DNA of 64,000 bases from Marmoricola sp. (GCA_051954195.1 JBQCHZ010000015.1:18357-82356); one strand, 5' to 3'; counted from the first letter of the stretch, positions 1-14,823 are shown. The notes: generated by a model from the letters alone, not told the origin. Numbers and translations are program-made.

Positions 1-860
1 AGGTTCTGGTCCATCGGGTGGTCCGGGAAGTGCTGCCGGGCGTCCTCGGGCGAGTACAGCCGGGCGACCGAGGGTCGGTAGCCCGTGGTGAGCACCTCGC
101 GGAGGATCCGCACGCCGTCGGCGAAGGCGGGCACGAGGAAGCCGTGATAGCGGGCGGTGTCGGGGTAGAACCGGAAGACCTTGACGGTTACCTCGGTGAT
201 GAAGGCGAGCGCGCCCTCGTTGCCGATCACGATGTGGCGGATGTCGGGGCCGGCCGCACGGCGGGGGACGTTCTTGATCCGAACGACGCGCCCGCCGGGC
301 AGGACGGCCTCCAGCCCGACGACCATGTCCTCGATCGCGCCGTACAGCGTGGAGAACTGGCCGATCGAGCGGGTGGCGACCAGCCCGCCCATCTGCGCGA
401 TCGGCTTGGACTGCGGGGAGTGACCGGTGGTGAGGCCCTGCTCGCGCAGCTGGTCCTCCAGCCGCTGCAGCGGTACGCCGCACTGCACCGTGACCATCAT
501 GTCCTCGGCGTTCACCGCGAGGACCGCGTCCATCCGCGACCCGTCGAGCACGATCGCGTCCTCCACGACCGTCTCCAGGCCGCCCTCGGTGCTGGTCCCG
601 CCGGTGCGCGGCACCACCGCGATCCGCTCCCGGTCGGCCAGCTCGAGCACCGCCGCCACCTGCTCGGTCGAGGTCGGGTAGGCGATCACCGCGGGGAAGG
701 GCCCGTCGAAGATGCCGTGCACGGCGGTGTACTTGCGGAAGCGGTCGACGCTGCTGGCGCGCAGGTGCTCGGGGTCGGTGTCCACCTGCTCGGCACCGAG
801 GAGGTCGGTGACGGCCGCGGCGATCTCGTCGCGGGTGAGGGTGGAGCGGGAGGCGACCAT
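1..860 (-). CDS. FAD-binding oxidoreductase, YgcU / alkyl-DHAP synthase / GlcD-like (runs off the left edge of the window)
   Basis: Not in the ORF track as a minus-strand ORF; translated by hand from ATG at 860: MVASRSTLTRDEIAA...VVPRTGGTSTEGGLE...GHSPQSKPIAQMGGLVATRSIGQFSTLYGAIEDMVVGLEAVL...GPDIRHIVIGNEGAL. This is a PCMH-type FAD-binding pattern resembling E. coli YgcU. Confidence 0.85.
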   Translation of the reverse strand, partial: MVASRSTLTRDEIAAAVTDLLGAEQVDTDPEHLRASSVDRFRKYTAVHGIFDGPFPAVIAYPTSTEQVAAVLELADRERIAVVPRTGGTSTEGGLETVVEDAIVLDGSRMDAVLAVNAEDMMVTVQCGVPLQRLEDQLREQGLTTGHSPQSKPIAQMGGLVATRSIGQFSTLYGAIEDMVVGLEAVLPGGRVVRIKNVPRRAAGPDIRHIVIGNEGALAFITEVTVKVFRFYPDTARYHGFLVPAFADGVRILREVLTTGYRPSVARLYSPEDARQHFPDHPMDQN

Positions 861-898
861 GGTGGGAAGTCCTTCGGTGGTGGTGAGGGCAGGAGGGG

Positions 899-1684
899 TC
901 AGCGGACGAGGTAGCCGCCGTCGACCACGAGGACGTGGCCGTTGACGTAGTCCGAGGCCGGCGAGGCGAGGAAGACCAGCGCCCCCATCAGGTCGGCGGG
1001 ATCGCCCCACCGGCCGGCCGGGATGTGCTCGACGATGCGCCGGTTGGCCTCGTCGTCACCGCGGGTGGCGGTGGTGATCGCGGTGGCGAAGTAGCCCGGG
1101 GCGATCGCGTTGACCTGGACGTTCGCGGCGCCCAGCTCGTCGCAGTAGGCCTTGGTGAAGCCCACGATGCCCGCCTTGGTTGCGGCGTAGGCCGGCGACT
1201 GCTGGCCACCCAGGAAGGAGAACAGCGAGGCGATGTTGACGATCTTGCCGCCGCCCTGGGCCACCATCCGGGTGGCCGCGGCGTGGGCGATCTCGAAGGC
1301 AGCGGTGAGGTTGACCGCGATCATCGGGTCCCACTGGGACCGGTCGAAGTCGGCCACGTCGGCGAGCAGGCAGATCCCGGCGGAGTTCACCAGGATGTCC
1401 ACGCCGCCGAGCTCCTCGACGCAGCGCTGCACGGCGGCGGCCGGCGCCCCGGGCTCGGTGAGGTCGACCTGCATGCTCGCGTAGCGACGCCCACGCCCGG
1501 TGACGGCGGCCTTCGTGGCGCCGTCGTCGTGGGTGATGCTCGGGGCGAAGACGTCGGCGCCGGCGGCGGCCAGGGCGACCGAGAAGGCGTGGCCCAGGCC
1601 GGTGTTGCCGCCGGTGACGATCGCCCGCTTGCCGGCCAGGGAGAAGTGGTCGAGCCCGAAGCCCTCCACGGCACTGGTGCTCAT
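899..1684 (-). CDS. SDR family oxidoreductase, YgcW / KduD-like
   Basis: TGGNTGLG, NSAG and YAATK motifs; C-terminus ASDYVNGHVLVVDGGYLVR closely resembles E. coli YgcW from memory; ATGA overlap with the upstream aldehyde dehydrogenase. Confidence 0.9.
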   Translation of the reverse strand: MSTSAVEGFGLDHFSLAGKRAIVTGGNTGLGHAFSVALAAAGADVFAPSITHDDGATKAAVTGRGRRYASMQVDLTEPGAPAAAVQRCVEELGGVDILVNSAGICLLADVADFDRSQWDPMIAVNLTAAFEIAHAAATRMVAQGGGKIVNIASLFSFLGGQQSPAYAATKAGIVGFTKAYCDELGAANVQVNAIAPGYFATAITTATRGDDEANRRIVEHIPAGRWGDPADLMGALVFLASPASDYVNGHVLVVDGGYLVR

Positions 1685-3183
1685 TCCGACACCGCCGCGG
1701 TGGCGTAGGGGTCGCGGATGCCGACGTACACGGTCTCGAGGTACTCCTCGATGCCCTCCGCGCCGCCCTCGCGGCCGAGCCCGGAGGCCTTGACGCCGCC
1801 GAACGGCGCCGCCGGGTTGGACACCACGCCGGTGTTGATGCCGATCATGCCCGACTCCAGCTCCTCGGACAGCCGCAGCGCCCGGTCGAGGTCGCGGGTG
1901 AAGACGAACGCGACCAGGCCGTACTCGCAGCTGTTCGCCGAGCGCACCGCCTCAGCCTCGTCGTCGAAGACCATGACCGGGGCGACCGGCCCGAAGATCT
2001 CCTCGCGGGTGATCTCCATGTCGGGTCGCACGTCGGTGAGCACGGTCGGCGGGTAGAACCACCCCGCTCCGTCGGCCACCGCTCCCCCGGTGAGCACCCG
2101 CGCCCCCGAGGCCACCGCGCCGTCGACCAGGCCGGCGACCTTGTCGCGGAAGCGCTCGGCGACGAGCGGACCGAGCGTGGTGCCGTCCTCGGAGCCGGGG
2201 CCCATCACGAACGACCGCATGCGGGCGGTGAGCTTGGTGGTGAACTCCTCCGCGACCGAGGCGTGCACGAGCATCCGGTTGGCGGCGACGCAAGCCTCGC
2301 CGCCGTTGCGCATCTTCGCGATCACGGCGCCCTCGACCGCCTCGTCGACGTCGGCGTCTGCGCAGACGATGAGCGGCGCGTTGCCGCCGAGCTCCATCGA
2401 CACCTTGAGGACCTGGTCCGACGCCGCGGCCATCCGCCGTCGGCCGACGGCGGTCGACCCGGTGAAGGAGAGCTTGCGGAGCCGGCTGTCGGCGAGCAGC
2501 GGGCCGCTGATCGCGCCGGGGTCGGTGGTGGTGACGACGTTGAGGACGCCCGGCGGGAGGCCGGCCTCCTCCATCACCGCGGTGAACAGCAGCGCGGTGA
2601 GCGGCGTGAGGTCCGCAGGCTTGAGCACCATCGTGCAGCCCGCCGCGATGGCGGGGGCGACCTTGCGGGTCGCCATCGCGATCGGGAAGTTCCACGGCGT
2701 GATCAGCAGGCAGGGGCCGACGGGCCGCTTGCGGACGAGCAGCCGGTTGGCGCCGTCGGGTGCGGTGGCGTAGCGACCGGAGATGCGCGGCGCCTCCTCG
2801 CTGAACCAGCGCAGGAACTCCGCGCCGTAGGCGACCTCGCCCCGGCTCTCGGCCAGCGGCTTGCCCATCTCCAGCGTGATCAGCCGGGCGAAGTCGTCGG
2901 CACGCGCGGTCACCAGCTCGAAGCCACGGCGCAGGATCTCGGCGCGGGCGCGGGCCGGCGTACGGGCCCAGGAGCGCTGGGCGCGGTCCGCCGCGTCGAG
3001 GGCACGGAGTCCGTCGGCGGCCGAGGCGTCGGCGACCGTGGCGAGCACGCGACCGGTGGCCGGGTCGTGGACGTCGAAGCGGCGTCCACCCTCGGCCTCG
3101 ACCCAGGCGCCGTCGATGTGGAGGCCGGTGGGGACCTGGGCGAGGAGGGCGCTCACCGCGTCGGGGAGTACGTCGGCGCTCAT
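1681..3183 (-). CDS. gabD: NAD(P)-dependent succinate-semialdehyde dehydrogenase family aldehyde dehydrogenase
   Basis: ITPWNFP, SFTGST, MELGGNAP, GEACVA (catalytic Cys), EEIFGP, PFGGVKASGLGREG. Start trimmed to ATG 3183 (MSADVLP), which overlaps the upstream stop as ATGA. Confidence 0.85.
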   Translation of the reverse strand: MSADVLPDAVSALLAQVPTGLHIDGAWVEAEGGRRFDVHDPATGRVLATVADASAADGLRALDAADRAQRSWARTPARARAEILRRGFELVTARADDFARLITLEMGKPLAESRGEVAYGAEFLRWFSEEAPRISGRYATAPDGANRLLVRKRPVGPCLLITPWNFPIAMATRKVAPAIAAGCTMVLKPADLTPLTALLFTAVMEEAGLPPGVLNVVTTTDPGAISGPLLADSRLRKLSFTGSTAVGRRRMAAASDQVLKVSMELGGNAPLIVCADADVDEAVEGAVIAKMRNGGEACVAANRMLVHASVAEEFTTKLTARMRSFVMGPGSEDGTTLGPLVAERFRDKVAGLVDGAVASGARVLTGGAVADGAGWFYPPTVLTDVRPDMEITREEIFGPVAPVMVFDDEAEAVRSANSCEYGLVAFVFTRDLDRALRLSEELESGMIGINTGVVSNPAAPFGGVKASGLGREGGAEGIEEYLETVYVGIRDPYATAAVSE

Positions 3184-4130
3184 GCCGGGAGCGCCTGGGG
3201 GGTGGCAGCCGGCAGCCGCAGGGTGGAGCCGAGCAGGTCCTCGTAGAGGTGGAACGGGGTCATCTCCCCGGCGCGGTCGCCGTAGGTGGCACGTGCCCGC
3301 CGGTAGACCTGCTCGACGACCGCCGAGACCTCGACCGGCATCCCCACGGCGGCGGCGAGGTCGGTGGAGAGCCCGAGGTCCTTGCAGGCGAGGGCGATCG
3401 CGAACCCCTCGTCGTAGTCGCCGTGCTCGAGGATCGAGAGCACGTCGCGCTCGAGGAAGTTGCTGTTGGCCGGGCTGGCGATGAGCGCGTCGCGCAGCAC
3501 CCCGAGCTCGACGCCGGCCTTGACCCCGACTGCGAGCACCTCCGCCGTGGCGACGAGGTGGGAGAACCACAGCTGGTTGATCATCAGCTTGACCGCGTAG
3601 CCGGCCCCGTGCGGACCCACGTGCAGGATCCGCTCGGGGTCGCCCATCGCCTCGAACACCGGCCGGAGCCGGGCGACCTGGTCGGCGTCGCCGCCGATGA
3701 AGATCTGCAGGCGACCGGTGGCGGCACCGACCGCCATCCCGCTGACCGGGGCGTCGAGCACGACGATGCCCCGGTCGGCGGTGCGGCGGCGGACGTCGTC
3801 GGCGACGGCGGGCACCGAGGTGGACATGTCGATCCAGGTGCCGCCGTGGGGCAGGCCGGCGAGGATGCCGGCCGGCCCGTTGACGACGTCGTTCACGATC
3901 GCCGGGGTCGGCAGCATCGTGATGACGGTGCCGGTGGCCGCGGCGACCGCGGCGGCGGAGTCGGCGATCTCGGCGCCCAGCGCGGCGTACTCCTCGAGGA
4001 CCTCGGGCCGGGTGTCGTGGACCACGAGCTCGAACCCGGACGCCAGCAGGTTGCGGGTCATGCCCGAGCCCATGCTGCCGAGTCCGATGAAGCCGACGCG
4101 GGTCGGCGTGGCGGTCAGGCTGTGCTGCAT
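3180..4130 (-). CDS. NAD(P)-dependent oxidoreductase, 3-hydroxyisobutyrate / 6-phosphogluconate dehydrogenase family
   Basis: VGFIGLGSMG, LDAPVSG, GAGYAVKLMINQL (catalytic Lys); start ATG 4130 (MQHSLTATP). Confidence 0.9.
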   Translation of the reverse strand: MQHSLTATPTRVGFIGLGSMGSGMTRNLLASGFELVVHDTRPEVLEEYAALGAEIADSAAAVAAATGTVITMLPTPAIVNDVVNGPAGILAGLPHGGTWIDMSTSVPAVADDVRRRTADRGIVVLDAPVSGMAVGAATGRLQIFIGGDADQVARLRPVFEAMGDPERILHVGPHGAGYAVKLMINQLWFSHLVATAEVLAVGVKAGVELGVLRDALIASPANSNFLERDVLSILEHGDYDEGFAIALACKDLGLSTDLAAAVGMPVEVSAVVEQVYRRARATYGDRAGEMTPFHLYEDLLGSTLRLPAATPQALPA

Positions 4131-4168: not shown

Positions 4169-4681
4169 TCAGCCGGCGGGTGTGTAGAAGGGGTTGTGGA
4201 CGCCGTCGCGGGCGTCGCGGACGTCCTGGACGGCGGGCAGACCGTGCACGCCGTTGCGCAGTGCCGTGGCGGTGGCCTCCCGGTTGTTGCGGTAGACCTC
4301 CTCCGCGTCGTTCGCCGAGGGGTTCACCCACACCGCGCAGATCAGCACCATCTGGTCGAGGTCGAGACCCTCCAGGGTGCCCTCGGCCAGAGCGTCGGCG
4401 ACGCCGCCGGCGACACCGGCCTGCGCCGGGCCCCAGATCATCAGGCCGTGCTCGTCGCCCTCCGGCGCCGCCTTGGTGACGAAGAGCGTCGGCGGCTTCA
4501 CCGGTACGCCGGGCTGCAGCACGGCCATGAACGGGACATGACCGGGGCTGGGGGTGGCCAGGGCCGTCGCCCACGCCGTCCCCACCGGCCCGAGCCGGCT
4601 TCCGAGGACGGTGTTGATGTGGGCGGCGTTGGCGCCGGAGCCGATGAAGGACTCGCCGACCTGGTAGACGGGGTCGCTCAC
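4169..4681 (-). CDS. fae: Formaldehyde-activating enzyme (Fae) family protein
   Basis: C-terminal part of track ORF 4169..5314; GTG 4681 overlaps the SBP stop (GTGA). QVGESFIGSGANAAHINTVLG, PVKPPTLFVTK, WGPAQAGVAGGVADALAEG, NREAT and HNPF align by eye with Methylobacterium Fae ([40 protein letters not shown], HPF). Confidence 0.85.
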   Translation of the reverse strand: MSDPVYQVGESFIGSGANAAHINTVLGSRLGPVGTAWATALATPSPGHVPFMAVLQPGVPVKPPTLFVTKAAPEGDEHGLMIWGPAQAGVAGGVADALAEGTLEGLDLDQMVLICAVWVNPSANDAEEVYRNNREATATALRNGVHGLPAVQDVRDARDGVHNPFYTPAG

Positions 4682-5610
4682 TTGAGGAGTCCGTGCTGGG
4701 CGAGGAAGTCGTGGGCGATGTCCTGGGGGTCCAGGCCGTCGACGTCCGCCTTGGCGTTGAGCTCCTGCATCTGCTCGGTGGTGAGCAGCGGGGAGAGCTT
4801 GGCGACGATGTCCTTGATCGCGGGGTACTTCTTGACGATGTCGGCCTTCATCGTCAGCGCACCCTGGTAGACCGGGAAGAAGTGCTTGTCGTCGTCCATC
4901 ACCGTGAGGTTGAGGGCCTTGATGCGGCCGTCGGTGGAGAACACCTCGCCGAAGTTGCAGTCCTTGCCCTTCTGGGTGGCGGTGTAGATGACGCCGGTGT
5001 CGAGGAGCTTGACGTTGCTGGCCGGGACGTTGATGTCGTAGGCCTTCTTGACGCCGGGCCAGCCGTCGTCGCGGGTGCTGAACTCGCTCTCGATGCAGAA
5101 GGTCTGGTCGGCGGCGGGCAGCTTGGAGACGTCGCTGAGCGACTTCACGCCGAGCTGCTGGGCCTTGTCGGAGCGGACCGCGAAGGCGTAGGTGTTGTTG
5201 AACGGCGCGGGGTCGATCCAGGCGATGCCGTTCTTGGCGTCGGCAGCCTTGACCGCGTCGAACTGCTTCTGCGGGTCGGTGATCGGCTTGGTGTTCTTCA
5301 GGTACGTGATCCACGCGGTGCCGGTGTACTCCCAGTAGCCGATGAAGTCACCGTTCGTCAGGGCCTGGCGGGTGTTGGCCGAGCCGACGAGCTTGGTGTT
5401 GACGTCGACGTCGGCGCCGTGGGCGTTGAGCAGGTCGCCCGTCATGTAGGCGAGGATGTACTGCTCGGAGAAGTCCTTGGAGCCGATGGTGCCGGTCAGG
5501 CCCTTGAGCTCCTGGCCGGCGCTCCCGGAGCTGGAGCTCCCTCCGCCGCACGCCGCGGTCGACGCGAGCATGGTGAGTCCGAGGAGGGCGGTAACGATCT
5601 TCTTCATCAT
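4678..5610 (-). CDS. Glycine betaine/choline-type ABC transporter substrate-binding lipoprotein (OsmF/OpuCC family)
   Basis: Lipoprotein signal (LASTAAC); IGSKDFSEQYIL, YWEYTGTAW, FNNTYA, EFSTRDDG, GEVFSTDGRI motifs. Confidence 0.9.
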   Translation of the reverse strand: MMKKIVTALLGLTMLASTAACGGGSSSSGSAGQELKGLTGTIGSKDFSEQYILAYMTGDLLNAHGADVDVNTKLVGSANTRQALTNGDFIGYWEYTGTAWITYLKNTKPITDPQKQFDAVKAADAKNGIAWIDPAPFNNTYAFAVRSDKAQQLGVKSLSDVSKLPAADQTFCIESEFSTRDDGWPGVKKAYDINVPASNVKLLDTGVIYTATQKGKDCNFGEVFSTDGRIKALNLTVMDDDKHFFPVYQGALTMKADIVKKYPAIKDIVAKLSPLLTTEQMQELNAKADVDGLDPQDIAHDFLAQHGLLK

Positions 5611-5681: not shown

Positions 5682-6512
5682 TCAGAGGCCGCGCGGGCGC
5701 GCGACCTCCTCGACGAGACCGGCGAGCCAGTCGATGAGGATCGCGATGGCGGCCACCAGGCAGGACCCGACGATGAGCACGGGATACCGCTGGAGCTTGA
5801 GGCCGTTGACGATCATGTCCCCGAGACCGCCGGCGTTGATGAAGGTCGCGATGGTGGCGACCCCGACGGCGAAGACCAGTGAGGTGCGCAGGCCGGCCAG
5901 GATCACCGGCGAGGCGAGGGGGAGCTCGATGCGGCGCAGCACCTGCCAGCGGGTCATCCCCATGCCGCGGGCGGACTCCCGGGTGGCGGCGTCTACCTCG
6001 GCGAGACCGGTGAGGGTGTTGCGCAGCACCGGCAGGAACGCATAGGCGACGAGTGCCACCAGGGCGGTGGTGAACCCGGTCTTCCAGGCGATCGCCAGCA
6101 GGATCACCACGCCGACGGCCGGGGTGGCCTGGCCGACGTTGGCGAGCGCGAGCACCACCGAGCGCAACACCTTCGACCGGGCCTCGTGGATGAGCGTCCC
6201 GATCGGGATGGCGAGCACCGCGACCAGCGCGGCGGCGGCGAAGGACAGCTCGAGGTGCTCGCGCACCCGGGCGATGAGGTAGGTGGTGTTGAGCGTGCGC
6301 TGCTCGATGGAGTCGAGGTGCTGGGACTTCACCCAGAGCATCAGCACGACCAGGGCGATCGCGACGAGCACGGGGGTGAGCAGCACCCGCGTGGGAGTGA
6401 GCCCGGTGCTGGTGGAGCCGAGCAGCATGGACCGCTCGTCGGCCGGGTCCGCCTGCTCGGTGGGGTCGCCGGACGCGGAGCGGCGGCCCTGCGCGGGGGT
6501 CTGGAGGCTCAC
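5682..6512 (-). CDS. Osmoprotectant ABC transporter permease
   Basis: Hydrophobic helices with ESARGMGMTRWQVLRRIELPLA (EAA loop) and GGLGDMI; GTG 6512 overlaps the ATPase stop. Confidence 0.9.
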   Translation of the reverse strand: MSLQTPAQGRRSASGDPTEQADPADERSMLLGSTSTGLTPTRVLLTPVLVAIALVVLMLWVKSQHLDSIEQRTLNTTYLIARVREHLELSFAAAALVAVLAIPIGTLIHEARSKVLRSVVLALANVGQATPAVGVVILLAIAWKTGFTTALVALVAYAFLPVLRNTLTGLAEVDAATRESARGMGMTRWQVLRRIELPLASPVILAGLRTSLVFAVGVATIATFINAGGLGDMIVNGLKLQRYPVLIVGSCLVAAIAILIDWLAGLVEEVARPRGL

Positions 6513-7534
6513 GAGGCGGTCACCTCCTGGCGGGGCGTGCGGGTCAATGCGGCCGAGATGTCGGCGTGCCGGAGCTGACCGAGCGGCACACCACGCTCGT
6601 CGACGACGGTGAGGGCGTCCGCGCCGGTGACCACGAGACGGTCGAGGGCGTCGCGCAGGGTGGCCGTCGCGACGAGGGTCGGCCGCTCGCCGCCCTCGGC
6701 GGGTGCGAGACGAGCGGCGGTGACCGGGATCAGCGCGAGCCGCTTGAGGGCGGCACCGGAGCCGATGAACGAGGCGACGTAGTCGTTGGCCGGCGCGGCG
6801 AGGATGGCGTCGGGGGTGTCGAACTGCTCGATGTGGCTGCGCTCGCTGAGCACCGCGATCCGGTCGCCGAGGCGAACCGCCTCGTCGAAGTCGTGCGTGA
6901 CGAAGATGATCGTCTTGCCGATGTCGGCCTGCAGCCGGAGGAACTCCGCCTGGAGCTTCTCCCGCGTGATCGGGTCGGTGGCACCGAACGGCTCGTCCAT
7001 CAGCATCACCGGCGGGTCGGCGGCCAGTGCCCGGGCGACACCGGCGCGCTGCTGCTGGCCGCCGGAGAGCTGGCGGGGGAAGCGCTTGGCGAAGACGGCC
7101 GGGTCGAGCTGCACGGTCTCCAGCAGCTCCTCGACCCGGGCGTTGGTCCGCTGCTTGGACCACCCGAGCAGCCGCGGCACCGTCGCGATGTTGTCGGCGA
7201 TGGTCATGTGGGGGAACAGGCCGATCTGCTGGATGACGTAGCCGATGTGGCGGCGGAGCTGGTCCGGGGCGAGGCCGAGGACGTCCTGGCCGTCGATGCG
7301 GATCGAGCCGCCGGTGGGCTCGATGATCCGGTTGACCATCTTCATGGTGGTGGTCTTGCCGCAGCCGCTCGGCCCGACGAACATCACCAGCTCGCCGGGG
7401 TTGATCGTCATCGAGAAGCCCTCGACAGCCGGGGCGCTCTGGCCGGGATAGACCTTGGTGACGCCGTCGAGCTCGATGCCGACGCCACCGCTGGTGCCGG
7501 CGGAGGAGAAGAGGTGCTTGGTCTGGTCAGCCAC
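6509..7534 (-). CDS. Osmoprotectant ABC transporter ATP-binding protein (OpuCA/OsmV-like, CBS-like tail)
   Basis: GPSGCGKT, LSGGQQQR, LMDEPFGATDP, FVTHD. Confidence 0.92.
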   Translation of the reverse strand: MADQTKHLFSSAGTSGGVGIELDGVTKVYPGQSAPAVEGFSMTINPGELVMFVGPSGCGKTTTMKMVNRIIEPTGGSIRIDGQDVLGLAPDQLRRHIGYVIQQIGLFPHMTIADNIATVPRLLGWSKQRTNARVEELLETVQLDPAVFAKRFPRQLSGGQQQRAGVARALAADPPVMLMDEPFGATDPITREKLQAEFLRLQADIGKTIIFVTHDFDEAVRLGDRIAVLSERSHIEQFDTPDAILAAPANDYVASFIGSGAALKRLALIPVTAARLAPAEGGERPTLVATATLRDALDRLVVTGADALTVVDERGVPLGQLRHADISAALTRTPRQEVTAS

Positions 7535-8237
7535 GGAGACCCCTCGGGGTGGTGAAGCGGGCGATGAGGATGAAGAGCCCGTCGACGACGAGGGCCAGGA
7601 GCACGACGAGCAGGGTGCCGCTGAGCGCGTAGTTGAGGGCGTTGAGGGAGCCGAGCGAGGACAGCCCCTGGAAGATGTACTGGCCCAGGCCCGGGCCGGC
7701 GACGTACGCGCCGATCGCCGCGATGCCGATCGCGAGCTGGGTGGCGACCCGGATGCCGGTGAGGATGATCGGCCACGCCATCGGCAGCTGCACGCGCAGC
7801 AGCACCGTCGACCGGCTCATCCCCATCCCGCGGGCCGACTCGAGCACGTGGGAGGGCACCTCGCGCAGTCCGGTGACGCTGTTCCGCACGATCGGCAGCA
7901 TCGAGTAGAGGACCAGCGCGGTGATGGTCGGTCCCCAGCCGAGGCCGAACAGCGGGCTGAGGATCGCCAGCAGCGCCAGCGACGGGACGGTGAGGATCAC
8001 CGCGGTCGAGGTGACGGCCAGGGTGCGCCCGATCGGGCGGTCCCAGACCAGCAGGGCGATCGCGATGCTGATCACCGTCGCGATGCCGACCGAGAGGGCG
8101 ACCACGAGGATGTGGTCGACCAGCATCGTGGTGAGGTCGTCGGAGCGGCGCTGGATGAAGGTCTCGAAGCCCTGGAGGCCGTGGTACTCGTCCGTGCTCA
8201 CCGGCCCGAAGGCGGCGGCCGTCAGAGAGATCTCCAT
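7527..8237 (-). CDS. Osmoprotectant ABC transporter permease
   Basis: ESARGMGMSRSTVLLRVQLPMAWP and GPGLGQYIF; ATG 8237 preceded by GGAGG. Confidence 0.9.
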   Translation of the reverse strand: MEISLTAAAFGPVSTDEYHGLQGFETFIQRRSDDLTTMLVDHILVVALSVGIATVISIAIALLVWDRPIGRTLAVTSTAVILTVPSLALLAILSPLFGLGWGPTITALVLYSMLPIVRNSVTGLREVPSHVLESARGMGMSRSTVLLRVQLPMAWPIILTGIRVATQLAIGIAAIGAYVAGPGLGQYIFQGLSSLGSLNALNYALSGTLLVVLLALVVDGLFILIARFTTPRGLRG

Positions 8238-8389: not shown

Positions 8390-9283
8390 ATGCCGCCCCC
8401 TCCAGCCGGTGCCGCCACGGCGCCGTCTCCTCCCCCGCGCCGCCGCAACAGCAGTGGGCTCGCCCGCGACGTGGAGCTGCTCGAGCTGTTCGCGGGCCCC
8501 GAGGCGCAGCGCGACGGTGGCCTGCGGGTGCTCCAGGTCGCGACGATGCTGGGCCGGGACAAGGCGACGGTGTCGCGGGCGCTGGCGACCCTGGCCGACG
8601 CCGGACTGCTGCGCCGCGACGCCGAGCGGCTGACCTACGAGCTGGGGCCGAAGCTCTACGCCCTGGCGGCGCAGACCCAGGAGGCGACGCTGGTCCGGCG
8701 GGCGCAGCCGCTGCTGCGGCAGATGGCCGCCTCGACCCGGGAGACCACGCACCTGTGCGTGCTGCGCGGCGGCAACGTGCTCACCCTGGTGAGCGAGATG
8801 AGCAGCCAGGTGGTCGGCACGACGAGCTGGGCCGGCACCACCACCGCCGCCTGGCGCACCCCGTCGGGACGGGTGCTCGTCAGCGACTGGGACCGCTCCT
8901 CGGTCGCCTCCTGGTACACCACCCACGGCCACGACGCCGCCCTGGTCAACCCGCCCCGCCCGCAGGGGCCCGGCACGTTCTCGCTGGTCACCGACCCGCA
9001 ACCGGACCGCCTCGTGGTGCGCGACCTGGAGACGCTGTACGCCGAGATCGCGCGCATCCGCCAGCGCGGCTACGCCACCTCCGACGCCGAGCTGGAGGAC
9101 GGCGTGGTCGCCGCCTCGGCTCCGGTGCGCGACGCCGCCGGCACGATCGTCGCCGCGGTGAACATCAGCGCCCCGAAGTCCCGGCTCGGGGGCCGGCTGG
9201 ACGAGATGGGACGCTACGTCGCGAAGTGCGCGAAGGTGCTCTCCGAGCACCTCGGCCACCCCGCGGCACCGCCCGTGGGATGA
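8390..9283 (+). CDS. IclR family transcriptional regulator
   Basis: N-terminal HTH (LELLELF...KATVSRALATLADAGLL, YELGPKL) and effector domain (TPSGRVL, RQRGYATSDAELEDGVVAASAPV, AAVNISAP); start 8381 or 8390. Confidence 0.92.
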   Translation: MPPPPAGAATAPSPPPRRRNSSGLARDVELLELFAGPEAQRDGGLRVLQVATMLGRDKATVSRALATLADAGLLRRDAERLTYELGPKLYALAAQTQEATLVRRAQPLLRQMAASTRETTHLCVLRGGNVLTLVSEMSSQVVGTTSWAGTTTAAWRTPSGRVLVSDWDRSSVASWYTTHGHDAALVNPPRPQGPGTFSLVTDPQPDRLVVRDLETLYAEIARIRQRGYATSDAELEDGVVAASAPVRDAAGTIVAAVNISAPKSRLGGRLDEMGRYVAKCAKVLSEHLGHPAAPPVG

Positions 9284-9294
9284 GGAGGCTGACG

Positions 9295-10227
9295 GTGATC
9301 ACGCGAGCTGACGTCGAGCAGGCCCGGGACCGGATCGCGGGACGAGTACGCCGTACGCCGCTCGCGCCCGTCGGCGGCGCCTTCGGGGGCCGGGGCTGGT
9401 TCAAGCTGGAGCACCTGCAGCACACCGGCAGCTTCAAGGCCCGGGGCGCGTTCAACCGGATCCTCTGCGCGGCCGAGGACGGCATCCTCGACCCGTCCGT
9501 GGGCGTGGTGGTGGCCTCGGGCGGCAACGCGGGGTTGGCGAACGCGTTCGCGGCACGGGCGCTGGGCGTGCCGGCCACCGTGTTCGTTCCCGAGACGGCG
9601 CCCCGGGTGAAGGTAGACCGGCTCCGGGCGTACGGCGCCGACGTGGTGCTGCGCGGCAGCGAGTTCGCCGAGGCGCAGGCGGCGGCCGTCGAGCATGCGG
9701 AACGGACCGGCGCGGTCGCCTGCCACGCCTACGACCAGCCGGCGATCGCGGCCGGCGCGGGGACGCTCGCCCTGGAGGTGCTTGACGACCTGCCCGACGG
9801 CGTCGACACGGTGATCGTCGCGGTCGGCGGGGGCGGCCTGCTCGCCGGCGTCGCGGCGGCGACGGAGGGCGCGGCCCGGGTGGTCGGTGTCGAGCCCCGG
9901 TCGATCCCGACCCTGCACACCGCGCTGGAGCGGGGCGCTCCGACCGACGTCGCGGTCTCGGGGATCGCCGCCGACTCACTGGGCGCACGCCGCCTGGGCG
10001 ACATCGCCTTCGACGTGGCGACCCGCACCGGCGTGGAGTCGGTGCTGGTCGGCGACGACGCCATCGTCGCGGCCCGCCGGCTGCTCTGGGAGGAGTACCG
10101 GATCGTCGTCGAGCACGGCGCCGCCACCGCCCTCGCCGCCCTGACCGCCGGCGCCTACCTGCCGGCCGCCGACGAGCGGGTCGTCGTCGTGCTGTGCGGC
10201 GCGAACACCGATCCCGCCACCCTGTAG
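9295..10227 (+). CDS. PLP-dependent threonine/serine dehydratase
   Basis: FKLEHLQHTGSFKARGA (PLP Lys), ASGGNAG, VAVGGGGL, VVEHGAA, LCGANTD; GTG 9295 follows AGGAGG (ATG 9280 is an alternative). Confidence 0.9.
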   Translation: MITRADVEQARDRIAGRVRRTPLAPVGGAFGGRGWFKLEHLQHTGSFKARGAFNRILCAAEDGILDPSVGVVVASGGNAGLANAFAARALGVPATVFVPETAPRVKVDRLRAYGADVVLRGSEFAEAQAAAVEHAERTGAVACHAYDQPAIAAGAGTLALEVLDDLPDGVDTVIVAVGGGGLLAGVAAATEGAARVVGVEPRSIPTLHTALERGAPTDVAVSGIAADSLGARRLGDIAFDVATRTGVESVLVGDDAIVAARRLLWEEYRIVVEHGAATALAALTAGAYLPAADERVVVVLCGANTDPATL

Positions 10228-11374: not shown

Positions 11375-11714
11375 GAGCTCCTCCGCACACAGGTACGCCG
11401 GCGCCGCGCTCGGGCGTATACCGCCACAGGGTTCCCCGCGCCCGGCGGCGTATGCGCACCGCGGCGCGCCGCCATCGGACCACACAGCGCACTCGGGCTG
11501 ACTAGGTGAACGCGGCGGGCGTGGACGGCCGTTCTGCCGCCGTCCCAGCGGGTCATTCCCCGCGTTCGGGCTACACCTTTCGGCGACCCGCCCTCGCTCC
11601 TCCCAGGCGACGGACGCGGCGCGCCTTGGTGAGTGCCTCCGGCAAGTCGCGTTAGCCTCGCCGCACTCGGACGTCGGCGCAGGAACGGGCCCGGGAAGTA
11701 GAGGCGGGGGAAGC

Positions 11715-13127
11715 ATGAGCGAAGAGTCTTGGCATGAGGCACGGCTCATTCCGACGTCCGGCATCAACGGCGCTGAGGAACAGGAGCGGCGTGCGACCTC
11801 CGCACTCCTTGCTGTGCTCGGTGCCGTCAAGGAGTTCGGACGGAGTTTCGTCAAGCCGTTCGGAGCACCGGCCGGAGCGATGCAGTGCTACATCGAGGTG
11901 CCCTTCACGCTCGGTGAACGGCGGCTCTACCCGGATGGCCTGATCCGCGTCAGACGTGGCTCCCGATCGTGGACCGCGCTGGTCGAGGTGAAGACCGGTT
12001 CTAACCGCCTCGCCACCGAGCAGCTTGAGGCTTATCTAGACATCGCTCGCGAGAACGCGTTTGACGCCGTTATCACCATCTCGAACGAGATCCCGGCGAT
12101 CGAGGGCCAGCACCCCACCAAGGTCGACAAGCGGAAGCTGAAGAAGGTCGCGCTGCATCACCTCTCTTGGTCCAAGGTCCTGGCGGATGCGGTCATGCAG
12201 AAGGAGTTTCGCGGCGTCGCAGACCCTGAGCAGGCGTGGATCCTCGGCGAGCTGATCCGCTACCTGGAGCACCGCAAGTCTGGAGCGCTGGAGTTCGACG
12301 ACATGGGCGAGGCTTGGGTCGGGGTTCGCGATGCCGTAGCTGCCGGCACCCTGCGACCGTCAGACAAGGGCGTGGACGAAGTCGTCGCACGATTCGATGC
12401 ACTGCTGCGCTTCGCCAGCCTTCAGCTCGGCCGCCAGCTCGGCACGGAGGTGGTACCGGCGTTGACGCGCCGCGAGCTGAGCGACCCTGCGTCACGTGCA
12501 CAGGCCATGACGGCCACGTTGTGCGATACCGGTGTCCTGACGGGGGCTATCCGTGTTCCGGACACCGTCGGGCACCTGGTCGTCACCGCAGATCTACGGG
12601 CCGCGAAGGTGACGTGCCACGTCGACGTAGAAGCGCCACGCGAAGGCAAACCCACGACCCGAGTGAATTGGCTGCTGCGTCAATTGAAGTCGGCTCCGGA
12701 CAGCACTCGCGTCGAGTCCTTTGTTGCCCATGGGCGTGGTGCAGCGATGGCGGAGCTTCTCGGCGCCATCCGGGAGAGCTCAGGGGTGCTGGTCGACGAC
12801 TCCGGCCGCGAGATCCGAGCCTTCCGTGGGGCGACCAGCGCTAATCTGGGATCGAAGCGCGGCCGCGGCCGCGGTGCCTTCATCGACTCTGTCCTCAGCG
12901 CCGTGGATGGGTTCTATGCGGACGTGCTTGGGTCGCTCCGTGCCTGGTCTGCCGCGCCTCCGAAGCTCCGGCCGGCCGACGCTGCATCCCAAGGGATCGA
13001 CGAGAAGATTCCACCGGCACTTCCGTCGACGGACTACTCCTCACAGGACGAGCCGTCGAACCAGCCTGCGGAGAGCTCGCCTGCTCCTAGCGAGCAACTG
13101 CCTTCTGCCGCGGAAGATATCGACTGA
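11715..13127 (+). CDS. Hypothetical protein with PD-(D/E)XK nuclease-like motif
   Basis: YPDGLIRV...WTALVEVKTG fits the PD..(D/E)xK catalytic spacing; acidic/Pro-rich low-complexity C-terminus; more A/T-ending codons than flanking genes. Confidence 0.6.
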   Translation: MSEESWHEARLIPTSGINGAEEQERRATSALLAVLGAVKEFGRSFVKPFGAPAGAMQCYIEVPFTLGERRLYPDGLIRVRRGSRSWTALVEVKTGSNRLATEQLEAYLDIARENAFDAVITISNEIPAIEGQHPTKVDKRKLKKVALHHLSWSKVLADAVMQKEFRGVADPEQAWILGELIRYLEHRKSGALEFDDMGEAWVGVRDAVAAGTLRPSDKGVDEVVARFDALLRFASLQLGRQLGTEVVPALTRRELSDPASRAQAMTATLCDTGVLTGAIRVPDTVGHLVVTADLRAAKVTCHVDVEAPREGKPTTRVNWLLRQLKSAPDSTRVESFVAHGRGAAMAELLGAIRESSGVLVDDSGREIRAFRGATSANLGSKRGRGRGAFIDSVLSAVDGFYADVLGSLRAWSAAPPKLRPADAASQGIDEKIPPALPSTDYSSQDEPSNQPAESSPAPSEQLPSAAEDID

Positions 13128-14823
13128 GATACGAGCGGAGCTGTTCGTCGCACACATATAGGTACGTCCCGAGGATCCCCCGGGTCACCAGCACCGCGTA
13201 GATGTTCGTGACCAGCTGGAGCAGATCATCGTCGCTGTAGACGATGCCCAGGCGCGGATTGTTCTCCTTGCCCTTGGAGTCGAAGTAGTTGTCCCGGTCG
13301 AAAACGAGTCGGCCGGCCGCGGCGTCGTACCTCAGGTCCGGACCGATGATCACGCCGGCGTAGTTGAGGTCGTAGCCCTGGACGGTGTGAATGGAGCCGA
13401 CCTCATCGCGGGAGGTCGGTGAGCCGACCCAGTCGACGGCTGTCCGGTTCCACTGAAGACGAACTCCGTCGATGTCGATGTCGATGGCGTCGCGGTTCGC
13501 CTTGCTTCGCCAGGGCCAGGCGTAGCCGGCCACCAGACGTCCCAGGCCGTGCTCGTCGTCCTTGCGTCGGATGGCTTCGACCATCGCTGGGAAGTCGTCG
13601 AAGAGGCGTAGGTCGTACTGGTCGAACGTCTGCGGCGCCGGCGGGTCAGCGCTCAGCACCCGGCGCACGTAGCCCACGTAGTCGTCTCCACCTGCGACGC
13701 GCATCTGAGTCGTCAGGCGGTAGCGGCGACGCTGCTCATCAACGGCTGCGAGCAGCTGGTCGACGACGTGGCGTGGAAGGTCAGCGGGACGCACGCTCTG
13801 TGCTGCGTCGATGAGGAAGATCTGGTGCGTGCTTCGGGCAACGATCCAGTCGAGCTGCGTGTGGAGCGAGTCGCCCGAGCCGAAGAGCCGTTCGTTGATG
13901 TCGGCGTACCGCCGGTTCTGCACACCCGACGGCTGGTTGGCGCGCTGGTTCAGCCGGTGCGCCTCGTCCACGATGAGCAGGTCGTACGGCTCCGAATCCT
14001 CGCCGACCTCGAACGGCGTCAACACCATCGCGGCGTCCAGTCCAGGCGTACGCCGGAACACCTTCTCGATCGACTTTCGAAGCGACTGCTGCGGGATGAC
14101 GAGGCCGACGCGGAAGTCCTCGAGGAGCTCGGGGTAGCCCGCGAGGAAGAACTCCGACAACACCGCGTCCTCGTCGACGGCTTCGGCTGGGTCGGAGGCC
14201 TTGATGTCGCTGAGCAGCTTCATGAGGTAGATCGCCACGACGGTCTTGCCGGTGCCGGGGTCGCCCTGGATGACGATCTGGCTGGGCCGGTCGTCGGCGA
14301 GGTCCTGGAACAAGCCGTCGAGGATGTCCTCCATCGCAATGGCCTGGTCCTGCGTCAGGGCCTTGAAGGGCGATAGCTTGAAGAGGTCGCTGTTCTCGAT
14401 CTCGCGCACGGACCGGCTGAACGCTCCGCGCTCTCGCAGCTCCTCGAAGATCTCGTCGAAGAGGAGTCGATACTCAGCGCGGCCGTAGTAGTCGCTGTCC
14501 GTGATGCCGACGTTGCGGTTGAGCACGTCGTACTGTCCGTCGCCCGAGAACAGTCGGATCAGGTGCGACTCCAGGTCGAGGCAGACGGACTTGTTGAACG
14601 TCGCGTCCACGACGATGCGTGCACCGGTCAGCTCGGCCTTCCGGGCGTCATCGAGGTGCTGGCGGAGACGAGTGACGGCGCTCAGCGACTCGCCGACGTA
14701 GATCTTGTCGGCGCTGCCGAGGGCGTAGACGACCGGCCAGTTCCTGAACCGCGGGTCGAGCGCGGCCCAAGCGTCGAGGTTACTGCGCTCGAACGCGACT
14801 TCCTCAATCCGGAAGCTGGTCAT
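13087..14823 (-). CDS. GIY-YIG nuclease fused to DUF2075 (Schlafen group 3-like / SF1-type) helicase domain
   Basis: N-terminal VVYALGSADKIYVGES...RLRQH...LESHLI; Walker A GDPGTGKT, Walker B LLIVDEAH, DAAQSVRP, LTTQMRV, VGSIHTVQGYDL, YAVLVTRG. Start ATG 14823 lies inside the end of the MazG-like gene. Confidence 0.85.
   Translation of the reverse strand: MTSFRIEEVAFERSNLDAWAALDPRFRNWPVVYALGSADKIYVGESLSAVTRLRQHLDDARKAELTGARIVVDATFNKSVCLDLESHLIRLFSGDGQYDVLNRNVGITDSDYYGRAEYRLLFDEIFEELRERGAFSRSVREIENSDLFKLSPFKALTQDQAIAMEDILDGLFQDLADDRPSQIVIQGDPGTGKTVVAIYLMKLLSDIKASDPAEAVDEDAVLSEFFLAGYPELLEDFRVGLVIPQQSLRKSIEKVFRRTPGLDAAMVLTPFEVGEDSEPYDLLIVDEAHRLNQRANQPSGVQNRRYADINERLFGSGDSLHTQLDWIVARSTHQIFLIDAAQSVRPADLPRHVVDQLLAAVDEQRRRYRLTTQMRVAGGDDYVGYVRRVLSADPPAPQTFDQYDLRLFDDFPAMVEAIRRKDDEHGLGRLVAGYAWPWRSKANRDAIDIDIDGVRLQWNRTAVDWVGSPTSRDEVGSIHTVQGYDLNYAGVIIGPDLRYDAAAGRLVFDRDNYFDSKGKENNPRLGIVYSDDDLLQLVTNIYAVLVTRGILGTYLYVCDEQLRSYLSRYLPRQKAVAR

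What the first reader, a model, noticed from the sequence alone, without database searches (positions are those of the whole stretch)
4169..4681. Fae homologue in an organism not expected to make tetrahydromethanopterin
Seen: full-length 170-aa Fae-like protein keeping the AHI histidine and the KP.TL and GPAQ.GVA motifs. Known: Fae condenses formaldehyde with H4MPT in methylotrophs and methanogens; no H4MPT genes (mch, mtd, fhc, mptG) occur in this window. Inference: it may use another acceptor (tetrahydrofolate, mycothiol) or act as a hydro-lyase/aldol-type enzyme on the operon substrate.
Basis: partly seen in the sequence, partly recalled or inferred. Interest (0 to 1): 0.65.

Follow-up and report, generated by a model that had tools for sequence, protein, structure and literature searches.

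The report
Fae-like enzyme without its usual cofactor
A soil actinobacterium that cannot make tetrahydromethanopterin still keeps an intact relative of the formaldehyde-activating enzyme, built into a conserved nutrient-breakdown operon, so this branch of the family probably does a different, still unknown, aldehyde-handling job.

Summary
Window 4169-4681 (minus strand) encodes an intact 170-aa Fae-family protein: Pfam 168 bits, TIGR03126 above cut-off, predicted fold TM 0.87-0.91 to Fae 1Y5Y/1Y60. The catalytic His and the GPAQ Gln are kept. The 99.8%-complete genome has no Mch, Ftr, Mtd N-domain or beta-RFAP synthase.

It is not a canonical Fae. It lies in a well-supported separate clade (100/99). 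That clade has replaced seven residues that are invariant in H4MPT-linked Fae. Members occur in Actinomycetota, Rhizobium and Caballeronia/Burkholderia; eight host genomes checked lack Mch.

The gene is translationally coupled to the binding-protein gene of a betaine-type ABC importer. It sits in an IclR-flanked operon with a beta-hydroxyacid dehydrogenase, an SSADH-like aldehyde dehydrogenase, an SDR, an alkyl-DHAP-synthase-like flavoenzyme and an FGGY kinase. A core trio recurs across three bacterial classes: Fae-like, an alcohol/aldehyde reductase and SSADH, plus a transporter.

Best reading (about 0.45): a pathway-dedicated, H4MPT-independent carbonyl-amine (hemiaminal) lyase. A tetrahydrofolate-dependent formaldehyde-activating enzyme is not excluded (about 0.2) and would matter. 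Fae-like proteins of unknown function in actinomycetes are already noted in the literature. The same scan separately noted Fae-oxygenase pairs on other DNA.

The parts
4169..4681 (-). Fae-like protein, 170 aa, of the H4MPT-independent ('orphan') clade. Keeps His21 (His22 of M. extorquens), Gln87 (Gln88), KPxTL and GE. Carries the clade signature N23, P44, H48, H78, W83, N120, P121, R134, N163.
4678..5610 (-). OpuAC-family substrate-binding lipoprotein of the ABC importer. Its stop overlaps the Fae-like start by 4 nt (GTGA).
   Evidence: Pfam OpuAC 200 bits. The closest solved relatives are choline/betaine/ergothioneine binders. Many invariant aromatic residues. Junction read.
5682..6512 (-). 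ABC permease 2
   Evidence: BPD_transp_1; gene call
6509..7534 (-). ABC ATPase
   Evidence: ABC_tran 123.7 bits
7527..8237 (-). ABC permease 1, first gene of the operon
   Evidence: BPD_transp_1
3180..4130 (-). Beta-hydroxyacid dehydrogenase (HIBADH / tartronate-semialdehyde-reductase family), specificity unknown. The most constant partner of the Fae-like gene.
   Evidence: NAD_binding_2 + NAD_binding_11. Below every NCBIfam equivalog cut-off. Closest solved: 2-(hydroxymethyl)glutarate dehydrogenase and HIBADH.
1681..3183 (-). SSADH-like (GabD-like) aldehyde dehydrogenase
   Evidence: Aldedh 539 bits. TIGR01780 548.6 bits, below its 646 cut-off. Closest solved are succinate-semialdehyde dehydrogenases, 489 bits.
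899..1669 (-). SDR, KduD-like
1..860 (-). N-terminal part of an alkyl-DHAP-synthase-like FAD enzyme. The whole gene is C15:17717-19216 and runs off the window start. An FGGY kinase gene (C15:16299-17720) follows it outside the window.
   Evidence: FAD_binding_4. Full length: AGPS 179 bits against 115-120 bits for glycolate oxidase / D-2-hydroxyacid dehydrogenases. FGGY.
8471..9283 (+). Divergent IclR-family regulator, conserved next to the operon in other genera

Best explanation
Shown: this is a genuine, intact, selected member of the Fae fold family. It belongs to a separate clade that is not tied to tetrahydromethanopterin. The clade keeps the catalytic core (His22, Gln88, KPxTL, GE) but has re-lined the rest of the pocket. 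Its genes sit in catabolic gene clusters, not C1 clusters. Here the gene is the fifth of a ten-gene IclR-flanked operon: four-component betaine-type ABC importer, Fae-like, beta-hydroxyacid dehydrogenase, SSADH-like aldehyde dehydrogenase, SDR, AGPS-like flavoenzyme, FGGY kinase.

Inferred: the protein is the operon's small lyase at the aldehyde level. It would use the family's chemistry, the reversible addition of an amine nitrogen to a carbonyl carbon (carbinolamine/hemiaminal to iminium or aminal, with loss or gain of water), on a pathway metabolite rather than on H4MPT. In doing so it releases or delivers the reactive, strongly hydrated aldehyde that the adjacent reductase and SSADH-type dehydrogenase then reduce or oxidise. 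The imported substrate is unknown; the binding protein suggests a quaternary ammonium or sulfonium compound. The SDR, AGPS-like and FGGY genes form an optional add-on that may free that compound from a glyceryl conjugate.
For: - **Family and fold:**
- **No H4MPT genes in the genome:**
- **Separate clade:** a 100/99-supported split from canonical Fae and from a second paralogue group.
- **Residue shift:** seven sites invariant in H4MPT-linked Fae are all replaced, namely E19, D24, Q79, F84, H121, Y135 and H164 (M. extorquens numbering). His22, Gln88, K71, T66, P64, G10 and E11 stay.
- **Phyletic decoupling:** Actinomycetota, Fae in 12 of 401 genomes and Mch in 2, with overlap only in the one genome that also has a canonical Fae next to Mch. 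Mch is absent from a Rhizobium, a Microbacterium, two Nocardioides and Rhodoluna.
- **Positive control:** in Hyphomicrobiales all 42 Mch genomes lie among the 44 Fae genomes.
- **Conserved context in Actinomycetota:** the same operon occurs in five Nocardioides/Marmoricola, Microbacterium (rearranged), Terrabacter, a metagenomic lineage seen on over 200 contigs, and Rhodoluna. A minimal form, ABC importer-fae-oxidoreductase-SSADH, sits on the S. clavuligerus giant plasmid with the same 4-nt coupling. A Streptomyces plasmid island carries an MFS transporter instead.
- **Conserved context in Proteobacteria:** AKR-Fae-SSADH in Rhizobium and fae-AKR-SSADH-MFS in Caballeronia/Burkholderia.
- **Other members of the clade** lie next to SSADH-like ALDH plus GabT (L036), HalD-like 2OG oxygenases (L038, L039), class-III-like alcohol dehydrogenases plus an enolase-superfamily enzyme (L040, L042, L043), or enolase-superfamily enzyme plus ALDH (L035).
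- **Purifying selection:** dN/dS 0.12-0.36.
- **No folate, H4MPT or RuMP gene** was seen in any of these neighbourhoods.
Against: - No substrate is identified and no reaction is demonstrated.
- The core trio has no obvious step that makes a carbinolamine or a C-N bond to cleave.
- Retention of the acid catalyst His and of Gln88 (which, from my memory of the 1Y60 paper, moves on pterin binding) fits continued use of a pterin equally well.
- Neighbourhood association cannot separate 'acts on the pathway aldehyde' from 'mops up formaldehyde released by the pathway'.
Confidence: 0.45

Rival explanations
1. It is a true formaldehyde-activating enzyme that has switched acceptor to tetrahydrofolate. 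It traps formaldehyde released during breakdown of the imported compound as 5,10-methylene-THF.
For: - The catalytic His22 and Gln88 are kept.
- Among the acceptors considered (H4MPT, mycothiol, glutathione, THF), THF is the only one expected in every host of the clade (general knowledge).
- The clade-specific gains of Arg134, His48 and His78 could bind the glutamate/benzoyl part of folate (inference).
- Some clade members are coupled to 2OG oxygenases, or lie near a BHMT-like methyltransferase and class-III-like alcohol dehydrogenases, all settings where formaldehyde is plausible.
- A folate-linked role has been suggested for Fae-like proteins (PMC11748545).
Against: - No folate enzyme (FolD, PurU, GlyA, GcvT-domain oxidase) is a neighbour in any of about 20 loci inspected.
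- The core trio (reductase plus SSADH) has no formaldehyde-producing step.
- The genome has only GcvT and a YgfZ-like GCV_T protein, so it has no folate-linked demethylases. It already has a mycothiol-dependent formaldehyde dehydrogenase.
- The gene is rare: 2 of 151 Nocardioidaceae.
- Two acidic residues invariant in H4MPT-linked Fae are changed: D24 is Asn throughout the clade and E19 is Asn here (variable across the clade).
Confidence: 0.2
2. It is a thiol-dependent formaldehyde activator (mycothiol here) that feeds S-hydroxymethyl-mycothiol dehydrogenase, playing the role proposed for Gfa with glutathione.
For: - The genome has a bona fide mycothiol-dependent formaldehyde dehydrogenase (640 bits against a cut-off of 513).
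- A deep subclade is flanked by class-III-like / mycothiol-FDH-like alcohol dehydrogenases.
Against: - The same clade with the same signature occurs in Rhizobium, Ensifer, Caballeronia and Burkholderia, which by general knowledge rely on glutathione rather than mycothiol.
- The dehydrogenase lies on another contig (C84) and is unlinked.
- The flanking alcohol dehydrogenases are far below the equivalog cut-offs (about 280 against 513 bits).
Confidence: 0.06
3. It is a non-catalytic aldehyde-binding protein: a sensor, buffer or chaperone for the pathway's toxic aldehyde.
For: Sensing or regulatory roles have been suggested for Fae-like paralogues (PMC11748545). The protein is small, has a single domain, and always sits next to aldehyde-consuming enzymes and a regulator.
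Against: The catalytic His and the GE/KPxTL/GPAQ core are invariant across the whole clade. The second paralogue group, by contrast, has lost the His. There is no DNA-binding or signalling domain, and the apparent fusions are frameshift artefacts.
Confidence: 0.08
4. It is an ordinary H4MPT-dependent Fae, and the cofactor pathway is hidden in unassembled sequence or the cofactor is scavenged.
For: It passes the NCBIfam equivalog-domain cut-off for Fae. The assembly is a draft of 89 contigs.
Against: - Completeness is 99.83% and four independent marker families are absent while the controls ring.
- The same absence is seen in genomes with few or single contigs that carry clade members.
- The seven H4MPT-linked invariant residues are replaced.
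- It falls in a separate clade.
Confidence: 0.02

Closest known systems
Formaldehyde-activating enzyme Fae of Methylorubrum extorquens AM1 (PDB 1Y5Y, 1Y60; Pfam PF08714, TIGR03126)
   Same: Same fold (TM 0.87-0.91, rmsd about 1.5 A) and same length. The alignment is ungapped at 33% identity. His22, Gln88, KPxTL and the N-terminal GE are conserved.
   Different: It lies in a separate clade (100/99). E19, D24, Q79, F84, H121, Y135 and H164 are all replaced, W122 becomes Pro, and F38/F119 become Trp. The host has no H4MPT pathway. The gene sits in a transporter/dehydrogenase operon, not next to mch/mtd/fhc.
Archaeal Fae and Fae-Hps fusion (NF009833)
   Same: About 39-40% identity to long (377-411 aa) representatives with an N-terminal Fae part. 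NF009833 gives 111 bits over the Fae part.
   Different: Those representatives carry the H4MPT-type signature E-H-D..Q-F-Q-H-P-Y-H. That they are Fae-Hps fusions is inferred from length only. Here there is no Hps fusion and no HxlA anywhere in the genome.
Fae2/Fae3-type paralogues of methylotrophs (function unknown; groups 2-4 of PMC11748545)
   Same: Fae-family proteins of unknown function. The literature already notes Fae-like sequences in actinomycetes.
   Different: The second paralogue group sampled here co-occurs with canonical Fae and Mch, forms its own clade on the canonical side of the tree, and has largely lost the catalytic His. The clade described here keeps the His and occurs without Mch. 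I could not map it onto the paper's group numbers.
[quoted passage not shown]
   Same: The name and the idea of speeding up a spontaneous formaldehyde condensation.
   Different: An unrelated family. The Pfam scan of this ORF returns only PF08714. Many literature hits for 'formaldehyde-activating enzyme' outside methylotrophs turned out to be Gfa.

Membership tests
Fae family (PF08714 / TIGR03126) | Profile-HMM score above the curated cut-off | tested here: met
   PF08714 168.1 bits against 27. TIGR03126 147.9 bits against 118.05.
Fae family (PF08714 / TIGR03126) | Fae fold | tested here: met
   AF2 model pLDDT 90.8. Foldseek top five hits are all 1Y5Y/1Y60, TM 0.85-0.92; the next hit has E 5e-3 and TM 0.38.
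Fae family (PF08714 / TIGR03126) | Acid catalyst His22 and Gln88 (roles recalled from the abstract of the 1Y60 paper, not re-read here) | tested here: met
   His21 and Gln87 align with them. Both are invariant in the whole clade.
H4MPT-dependent Fae (functional class EC 4.2.1.147) | Residues invariant in canonical bacterial Fae and shared by archaeal-type representatives (E19, D24, Q79, F84, H121, Y135, H164) | tested here: not met
   All seven are replaced here: N18, N23, H78, W83, N120, R134, N163. Most replacements are clade-wide.
H4MPT-dependent Fae (functional class EC 4.2.1.147) | Co-occurrence with the H4MPT pathway (Mch, Ftr/Fhc, Mtd, beta-RFAP synthase) | tested here: not met
   None found in the 99.83%-complete genome. 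Mch is absent from five other hosts and from 11 of 12 Fae-bearing Actinomycetota. Control: 42 of 44 in Hyphomicrobiales.
H4MPT-dependent Fae (functional class EC 4.2.1.147) | Phylogenetic placement within the clade of biochemically validated Fae | tested here: not met
   It falls on the other side of a 100/99 branch. The canonical clade itself is supported at 98/95.
H4MPT-dependent Fae (functional class EC 4.2.1.147) | Catalysis of formaldehyde + H4MPT to methylene-H4MPT | not testable with these tools
   Needs purified protein and cofactor.
Fae2/Fae3-like paralogues | Placement in the paralogue clade that co-occurs with canonical Fae | tested here: not met
   That group is a separate 100/99 clade sister to canonical Fae.
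OpuC/OsmF(YehZ)-type ABC importer (the neighbouring genes) | Two permeases, one ATPase and one OpuAC-fold binding protein | tested here: met
   The nearest solved binding proteins bind choline, betaine or ergothioneine. The ligand itself is not testable here.

The most novel reading that the evidence does not exclude
The clade may be the missing enzyme that condenses formaldehyde with tetrahydrofolate: a folate-dependent Fae. The clade is widespread outside the methylotrophs sampled here. The evidence neither shows nor excludes this.
Probability: 0.2. Interest if true: 0.9.

Novelty: new variant of a known kind. Interest (0 to 1): 0.6.

Why it matters
Annotation pipelines name these proteins 'formaldehyde-activating enzyme' or '5,6,7,8-tetrahydromethanopterin hydro-lyase'. 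The hosts lack that cofactor's pathway, so a whole clade is probably misannotated. At least 38 of the 101 full-length 50%-identity representatives examined carry the clade signature.

The clade marks a conserved, horizontally mobile three-enzyme module of unknown function: Fae-like, an alcohol/aldehyde reductase and SSADH, with a transporter. It occurs in soil and freshwater Actinomycetota, in rhizobia and in insect-symbiotic Burkholderia relatives. Solving it would add a new reaction to the Fae fold and probably a new catabolic route for an osmolyte-like compound.

If the acceptor proves to be tetrahydrofolate, the payoff is larger. The spontaneous formaldehyde-THF reaction is too slow to support growth; the calculated doubling time exceeds three weeks (PMC7073904). 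To my knowledge no enzyme is known for that reaction, so such an enzyme would be directly useful for synthetic methylotrophy.

Tried and rejected
- **Canonical Fae with a hidden H4MPT pathway:** rejected.
- **Link to glycine-betaine demethylation:** the genome has only GcvT and a YgfZ-like GCV_T protein, so it has no dimethylglycine or sarcosine oxidase of that type.
- **Serine/threonine dehydratase as part of the system:** the gene next to IclR (9280-10227) is not found beside the operon in any other genome, so I dropped it.
- **RuMP link as in archaeal Fae-Hps:** there is no HxlA.
- **Rosetta-stone fusions:** the long representatives with the clade signature are out-of-frame, Arg/Pro-rich artefacts or read-throughs into HalD-like or HIBADH neighbours.
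- **Hydroxyproline-betaine epimerase idea:** the enolase-superfamily neighbours in Rhodoluna and the deep subclade are closest to acid-sugar dehydratases/cycloisomerases, not HpbD.
- **HpaI-type formaldehyde-releasing aldolase in Rhodoluna:** that gene looks CitE/RipC-like instead.
- **Literature:** searches for an orphan Fae in Nocardioides, Streptomyces, Microbacterium, Rhodoluna or betaine contexts found nothing relevant, and most hits were Gfa. The two primary Fae papers (PubMed 15632161, PMC111405) are not held, so the roles of His22 and Gln88 rest on my memory of the abstract.
- **Ligand-contact mapping:** I could not get model or PDB coordinates, so the changed residues were not mapped onto ligand contacts.
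- **Speculative substrates considered, none testable here:** the deacylated head groups of betaine lipids (glyceryl-homoserine betaine, hydroxymethyl-trimethyl-beta-alanine), homoserine betaine, beta-alanine betaine or DMSP via 3-hydroxypropionate, and glyoxylate acetals.

Full report
**1. The observation**

Window 4169-4681 on the minus strand translates to a 170-aa protein with no stops. It matches Pfam Fae over the full profile (168.1 bits, positions 1-158 of 159). It also passes NCBIfam TIGR03126 (147.9 bits against a cut-off of 118.05).

It aligns without a gap to M. extorquens Fae (1Y5Y, 93.9 bits).

An AlphaFold2 model built on 22 homologues has mean pLDDT 90.8. It superposes on 1Y5Y/1Y60 at TM 0.85-0.92 and rmsd 1.4-1.8 A with 33% identity. 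Nothing else in the PDB matches above TM 0.43.

The start is the GTG at 4681. It overlaps the TGA of the upstream binding-protein gene in the sequence GTGA. The 381-aa ORF listed is a high-GC artefact.

Pairwise dN/dS against orthologues is 0.12-0.36, so the gene is under purifying selection.

**2. No H4MPT pathway**

The window lies on contig C15 of a 3.29-Mb, 89-contig assembly that is 99.83% complete.

| Query | Result in this genome |
|---|---|
| Fae (PF08714) | this single copy |
| MCH | no match |
| FTR | no match |
| Beta-RFAP synthase | one 12-bit chance hit |
| Mtd N-terminal domain | no match |
| Hexulose-phosphate synthase | none |
| Mycothiol-dependent formaldehyde dehydrogenase | present, 640 bits |
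| GCV_T-domain proteins | only GcvT and a YgfZ-like protein |

The archaeal control genomes rang in the MCH, FTR and beta-RFAP synthase searches.

**3. The pattern across genomes**

In an even sample of 401 Actinomycetota, 12 genomes carry a Fae-family gene and 2 carry Mch. The only overlap is G145. That genome has a canonical, 234-bit Fae a few kb from Mch, plus a second, divergent copy.

Mch is also absent from Rhizobium sp. BK418, a Microbacterium, two Nocardioides and Rhodoluna planktonica, all of which carry relatives of this gene.

As a control I sampled 251 Hyphomicrobiales. Of these, 44 have Fae and 42 have Mch, and all 42 lie among the 44. The two exceptions are the Rhizobium and one small 2.1-Mb genome.

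Within Nocardioidaceae the gene is rare: 2 of 151 species, and 0 of 6 others in the same genus.

**4. A separate clade with its own signature**

An IQ-TREE tree of 76 Fae-family sequences has a 100/99 branch. On one side lie all Mch-less types: the operon-type Actinomycetota, other Actinomycetota and the Rhizobium type. On the other lie canonical Fae (98/95) plus a second paralogue group (100/99) that co-occurs with canonical Fae.

A column-by-column comparison gives this picture:
- G9, E10, G47, P63, T65, K70, G84 and Q87 are invariant everywhere.
- His21 is kept in the new clade and in canonical Fae, but is largely lost in the second paralogue group.
- Sites that are about 100% conserved in canonical Fae are systematically different in the new clade.

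| M. extorquens residue | This protein | Conservation in the new clade |
|---|---|---|
| E19 | N18 | variable |
| D24 | N23 | conserved |
| F49 | H48 | conserved |
| Q79 | H78 | conserved |
| F84 | W83 | conserved |
| H121 | N120 | N or D |
| W122 | P121 | conserved |
| Y135 | R134 | mostly R |
| H164 | N163 | mostly N |

F38 and F119 also become Trp.

An exhaustive HMMER scan of 1.84 billion representatives finds 915 Fae-family clusters (447 at E<=1e-10). Among 101 full-length ones in the top 150, at least 38 carry the new signature. Long representatives with an N-terminal Fae part carry the canonical-type signature. I infer from their length alone that those are the archaeal Fae-Hps architecture. 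So the two H4MPT-linked groups agree with each other and differ from this clade.

**5. Gene context here**

Using a GC3-based gene call and Pfam/NCBIfam/PDB searches, the minus-strand operon reads as follows.

| Position | Product |
|---|---|
| 7527-8237 | ABC permease |
| 6509-7534 | ABC ATPase |
| 5682-6512 | ABC permease |
| 4678-5610 | OpuAC-type lipoprotein; closest solved relatives bind choline, betaine or ergothioneine |
| 4169-4681 | Fae-like |
| 3180-4130 | Beta-hydroxyacid dehydrogenase; closest solved are 2-(hydroxymethyl)glutarate dehydrogenase, HIBADH and tartronate semialdehyde reductase |
| 1681-3183 | SSADH-like ALDH, 489 bits to GabD structures |
| 899-1669 | KduD-like SDR |
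| C15:17717-19216 (window 1-860 plus upstream) | FAD enzyme; closest solved relatives are alkyl-DHAP synthases (179 bits against 115-120 for glycolate oxidase / D-2-hydroxyacid dehydrogenases) |
| C15:16299-17720 (outside the window) | FGGY kinase |

An IclR gene (8471-9283) is divergent.

**6. Context elsewhere**

- The same gene set and order recurs in five Nocardioides/Marmoricola genomes.
- It recurs with the transporter moved in Microbacterium.
- It recurs in Terrabacter, and in a metagenomic lineage seen on more than 200 contigs that lacks the ALDH.
- Rhodoluna planktonica, with a 1.4-Mb genome, keeps IclR, the importer and Fae-like. They are followed by an enolase-superfamily enzyme, ALDH, beta-HAD, Fe-ADH, ALDH and a CitE-like lyase.
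- The S. clavuligerus giant linear plasmid carries a minimal version: importer, fae (same 4-nt overlap), oxidoreductase, SSADH.
- A Streptomyces sp. plasmid island flanked by IS elements and integrases has IclR, fae-oxidoreductase, a divergent SSADH-SDR-FAD-FGGY block and an MFS transporter.
- In Rhizobium the arrangement is AKR-Fae-SSADH-LysR, and that ALDH passes the SSADH cut-off (697 against 646 bits).
- In Caballeronia grimmiae and Burkholderia sp. RPE67 it is fae-AKR-SSADH-MFS.
- Deeper branches of the clade sit in four further settings: next to beta-HAD plus a betaine-type importer, IclR and a BHMT-like methyltransferase (L045); between two class-III-like alcohol dehydrogenases with an enolase-superfamily enzyme (L040, L042, L043); next to GabT and an SSADH-like ALDH (L036); or translationally coupled to HalD-like 2OG oxygenases (L038, L039). 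The last setting echoes two earlier notes of this scan.

The constant elements are therefore three: the Fae-like protein, an NAD(P)-dependent alcohol/aldehyde oxidoreductase (beta-HAD or AKR), and an SSADH-type ALDH. A transporter and a regulator accompany them. The SDR, AGPS-like enzyme and FGGY kinase are an optional module.

**7. Interpretation**

What is shown:
- The protein is a real Fae-fold protein under selection.
- It belongs to a distinct clade.
- The H4MPT-linked invariant residues are replaced while the catalytic core is kept.
- No H4MPT pathway is present.
- It is embedded in a mobile catabolic module centred on aldehyde-level oxidoreductases.

What is inferred: the protein still performs carbonyl-amine addition/elimination chemistry, but on something other than H4MPT.

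I favour a substrate-level role (about 0.45). In this reading it is a hemiaminal/aminal lyase that releases or delivers the pathway's reactive aldehyde to the reductase and SSADH. Four observations support this:
- The partners are constant across three bacterial classes.
- None of the partners makes formaldehyde.
- No folate gene is ever nearby.
- The pocket is re-lined with Trp, His and Arg.

The folate-acceptor reading (about 0.2) is kept alive by the conserved His/Gln core and by the 2OG-oxygenase and class-III-ADH contexts. Thiol-dependent activation (0.06), a sensor role (0.08) and a hidden H4MPT pathway (0.02) are less likely, for the reasons given under the rival explanations.

The idea that FGGY kinase, SDR and the AGPS-like enzyme cleave a glyceryl ether is speculation. 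It would run by phosphorylation, oxidation to a DHAP-type ketone, then flavin-assisted exchange. The identity of the imported compound is speculation too.

**8. Novelty**

A 2024 paper already shows Fae-like sequences from actinomycetes in a family tree. It states that groups 2-4 have unknown function, with sensing or folate-linked roles suggested (PMC11748545). As far as the held literature shows, the following are new:
- the demonstration that this clade is decoupled from Mch;
- its residue signature;
- the conserved trio and operon.

I class it as a new variant of a known kind, of moderate to good interest, with a high-value minority possibility.

Noticed in passing
window 1-1669 plus G000:C15:16299-19216: An FGGY kinase, a KduD-like SDR and an alkyl-DHAP-synthase-like flavoenzyme travel together as an optional block. 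It is present in Nocardioides, Terrabacter, Microbacterium and a Streptomyces plasmid, and absent from S. clavuligerus and Rhodoluna. A catabolic glyceryl-ether or DHAP-derivative cleavage route is conceivable, but nothing is known about it.
   Followed up: partly
window 8471-10227: The IclR regulator gene overlaps the start of a serine/threonine dehydratase gene (PRK08246, 436 bits, above its cut-off of 331). The dehydratase does not accompany the operon in any other genome examined, so it is probably a local addition.
   Followed up: partly
L034 / L032-L033 (G145:C4:414279-422264): One sampled Actinomycetota genome has a canonical Fae a few kb from Mch; its closest protein relatives are named Solirubrobacterales. 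It therefore has an apparent H4MPT pathway in this phylum. Mch there matches as two adjacent pieces (profile 1-113 and 113-311), which suggests a frameshift or two ORFs. The same genome also holds a divergent Fae-like copy beside a class-III-like alcohol dehydrogenase, an enolase-superfamily gene and a HIBADH-like gene (L043).
   Followed up: no
L038:8791-12586 and L039:9726-12562: HalD-like Fe/2OG oxygenase genes lie immediately upstream of Fae-like genes in two unrelated actinobacterial families, overlapping by 16 nt in L039. In L038 an ALDH lies upstream, and in L039 a 2-oxoacid dehydrogenase E2. This matches two earlier notes of this scan on other genomes.
   Followed up: partly
L101 (Streptomyces sp. 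NBC_01562 plasmid, NZ_CP109358.1:288678-309166): The Fae-like module sits on a mobilizable linear plasmid between IS3/IS701/IS5 transposases and two tyrosine recombinases. This is direct evidence that the module moves horizontally.
   Followed up: no
window 11375-13086: My GC3-based gene caller found no gene in this 1.7-kb stretch beside the Schlafen-type helicase gene (13087-14823). This is consistent with foreign, lower-GC3 DNA, as other notes on this window have already said.
   Followed up: no
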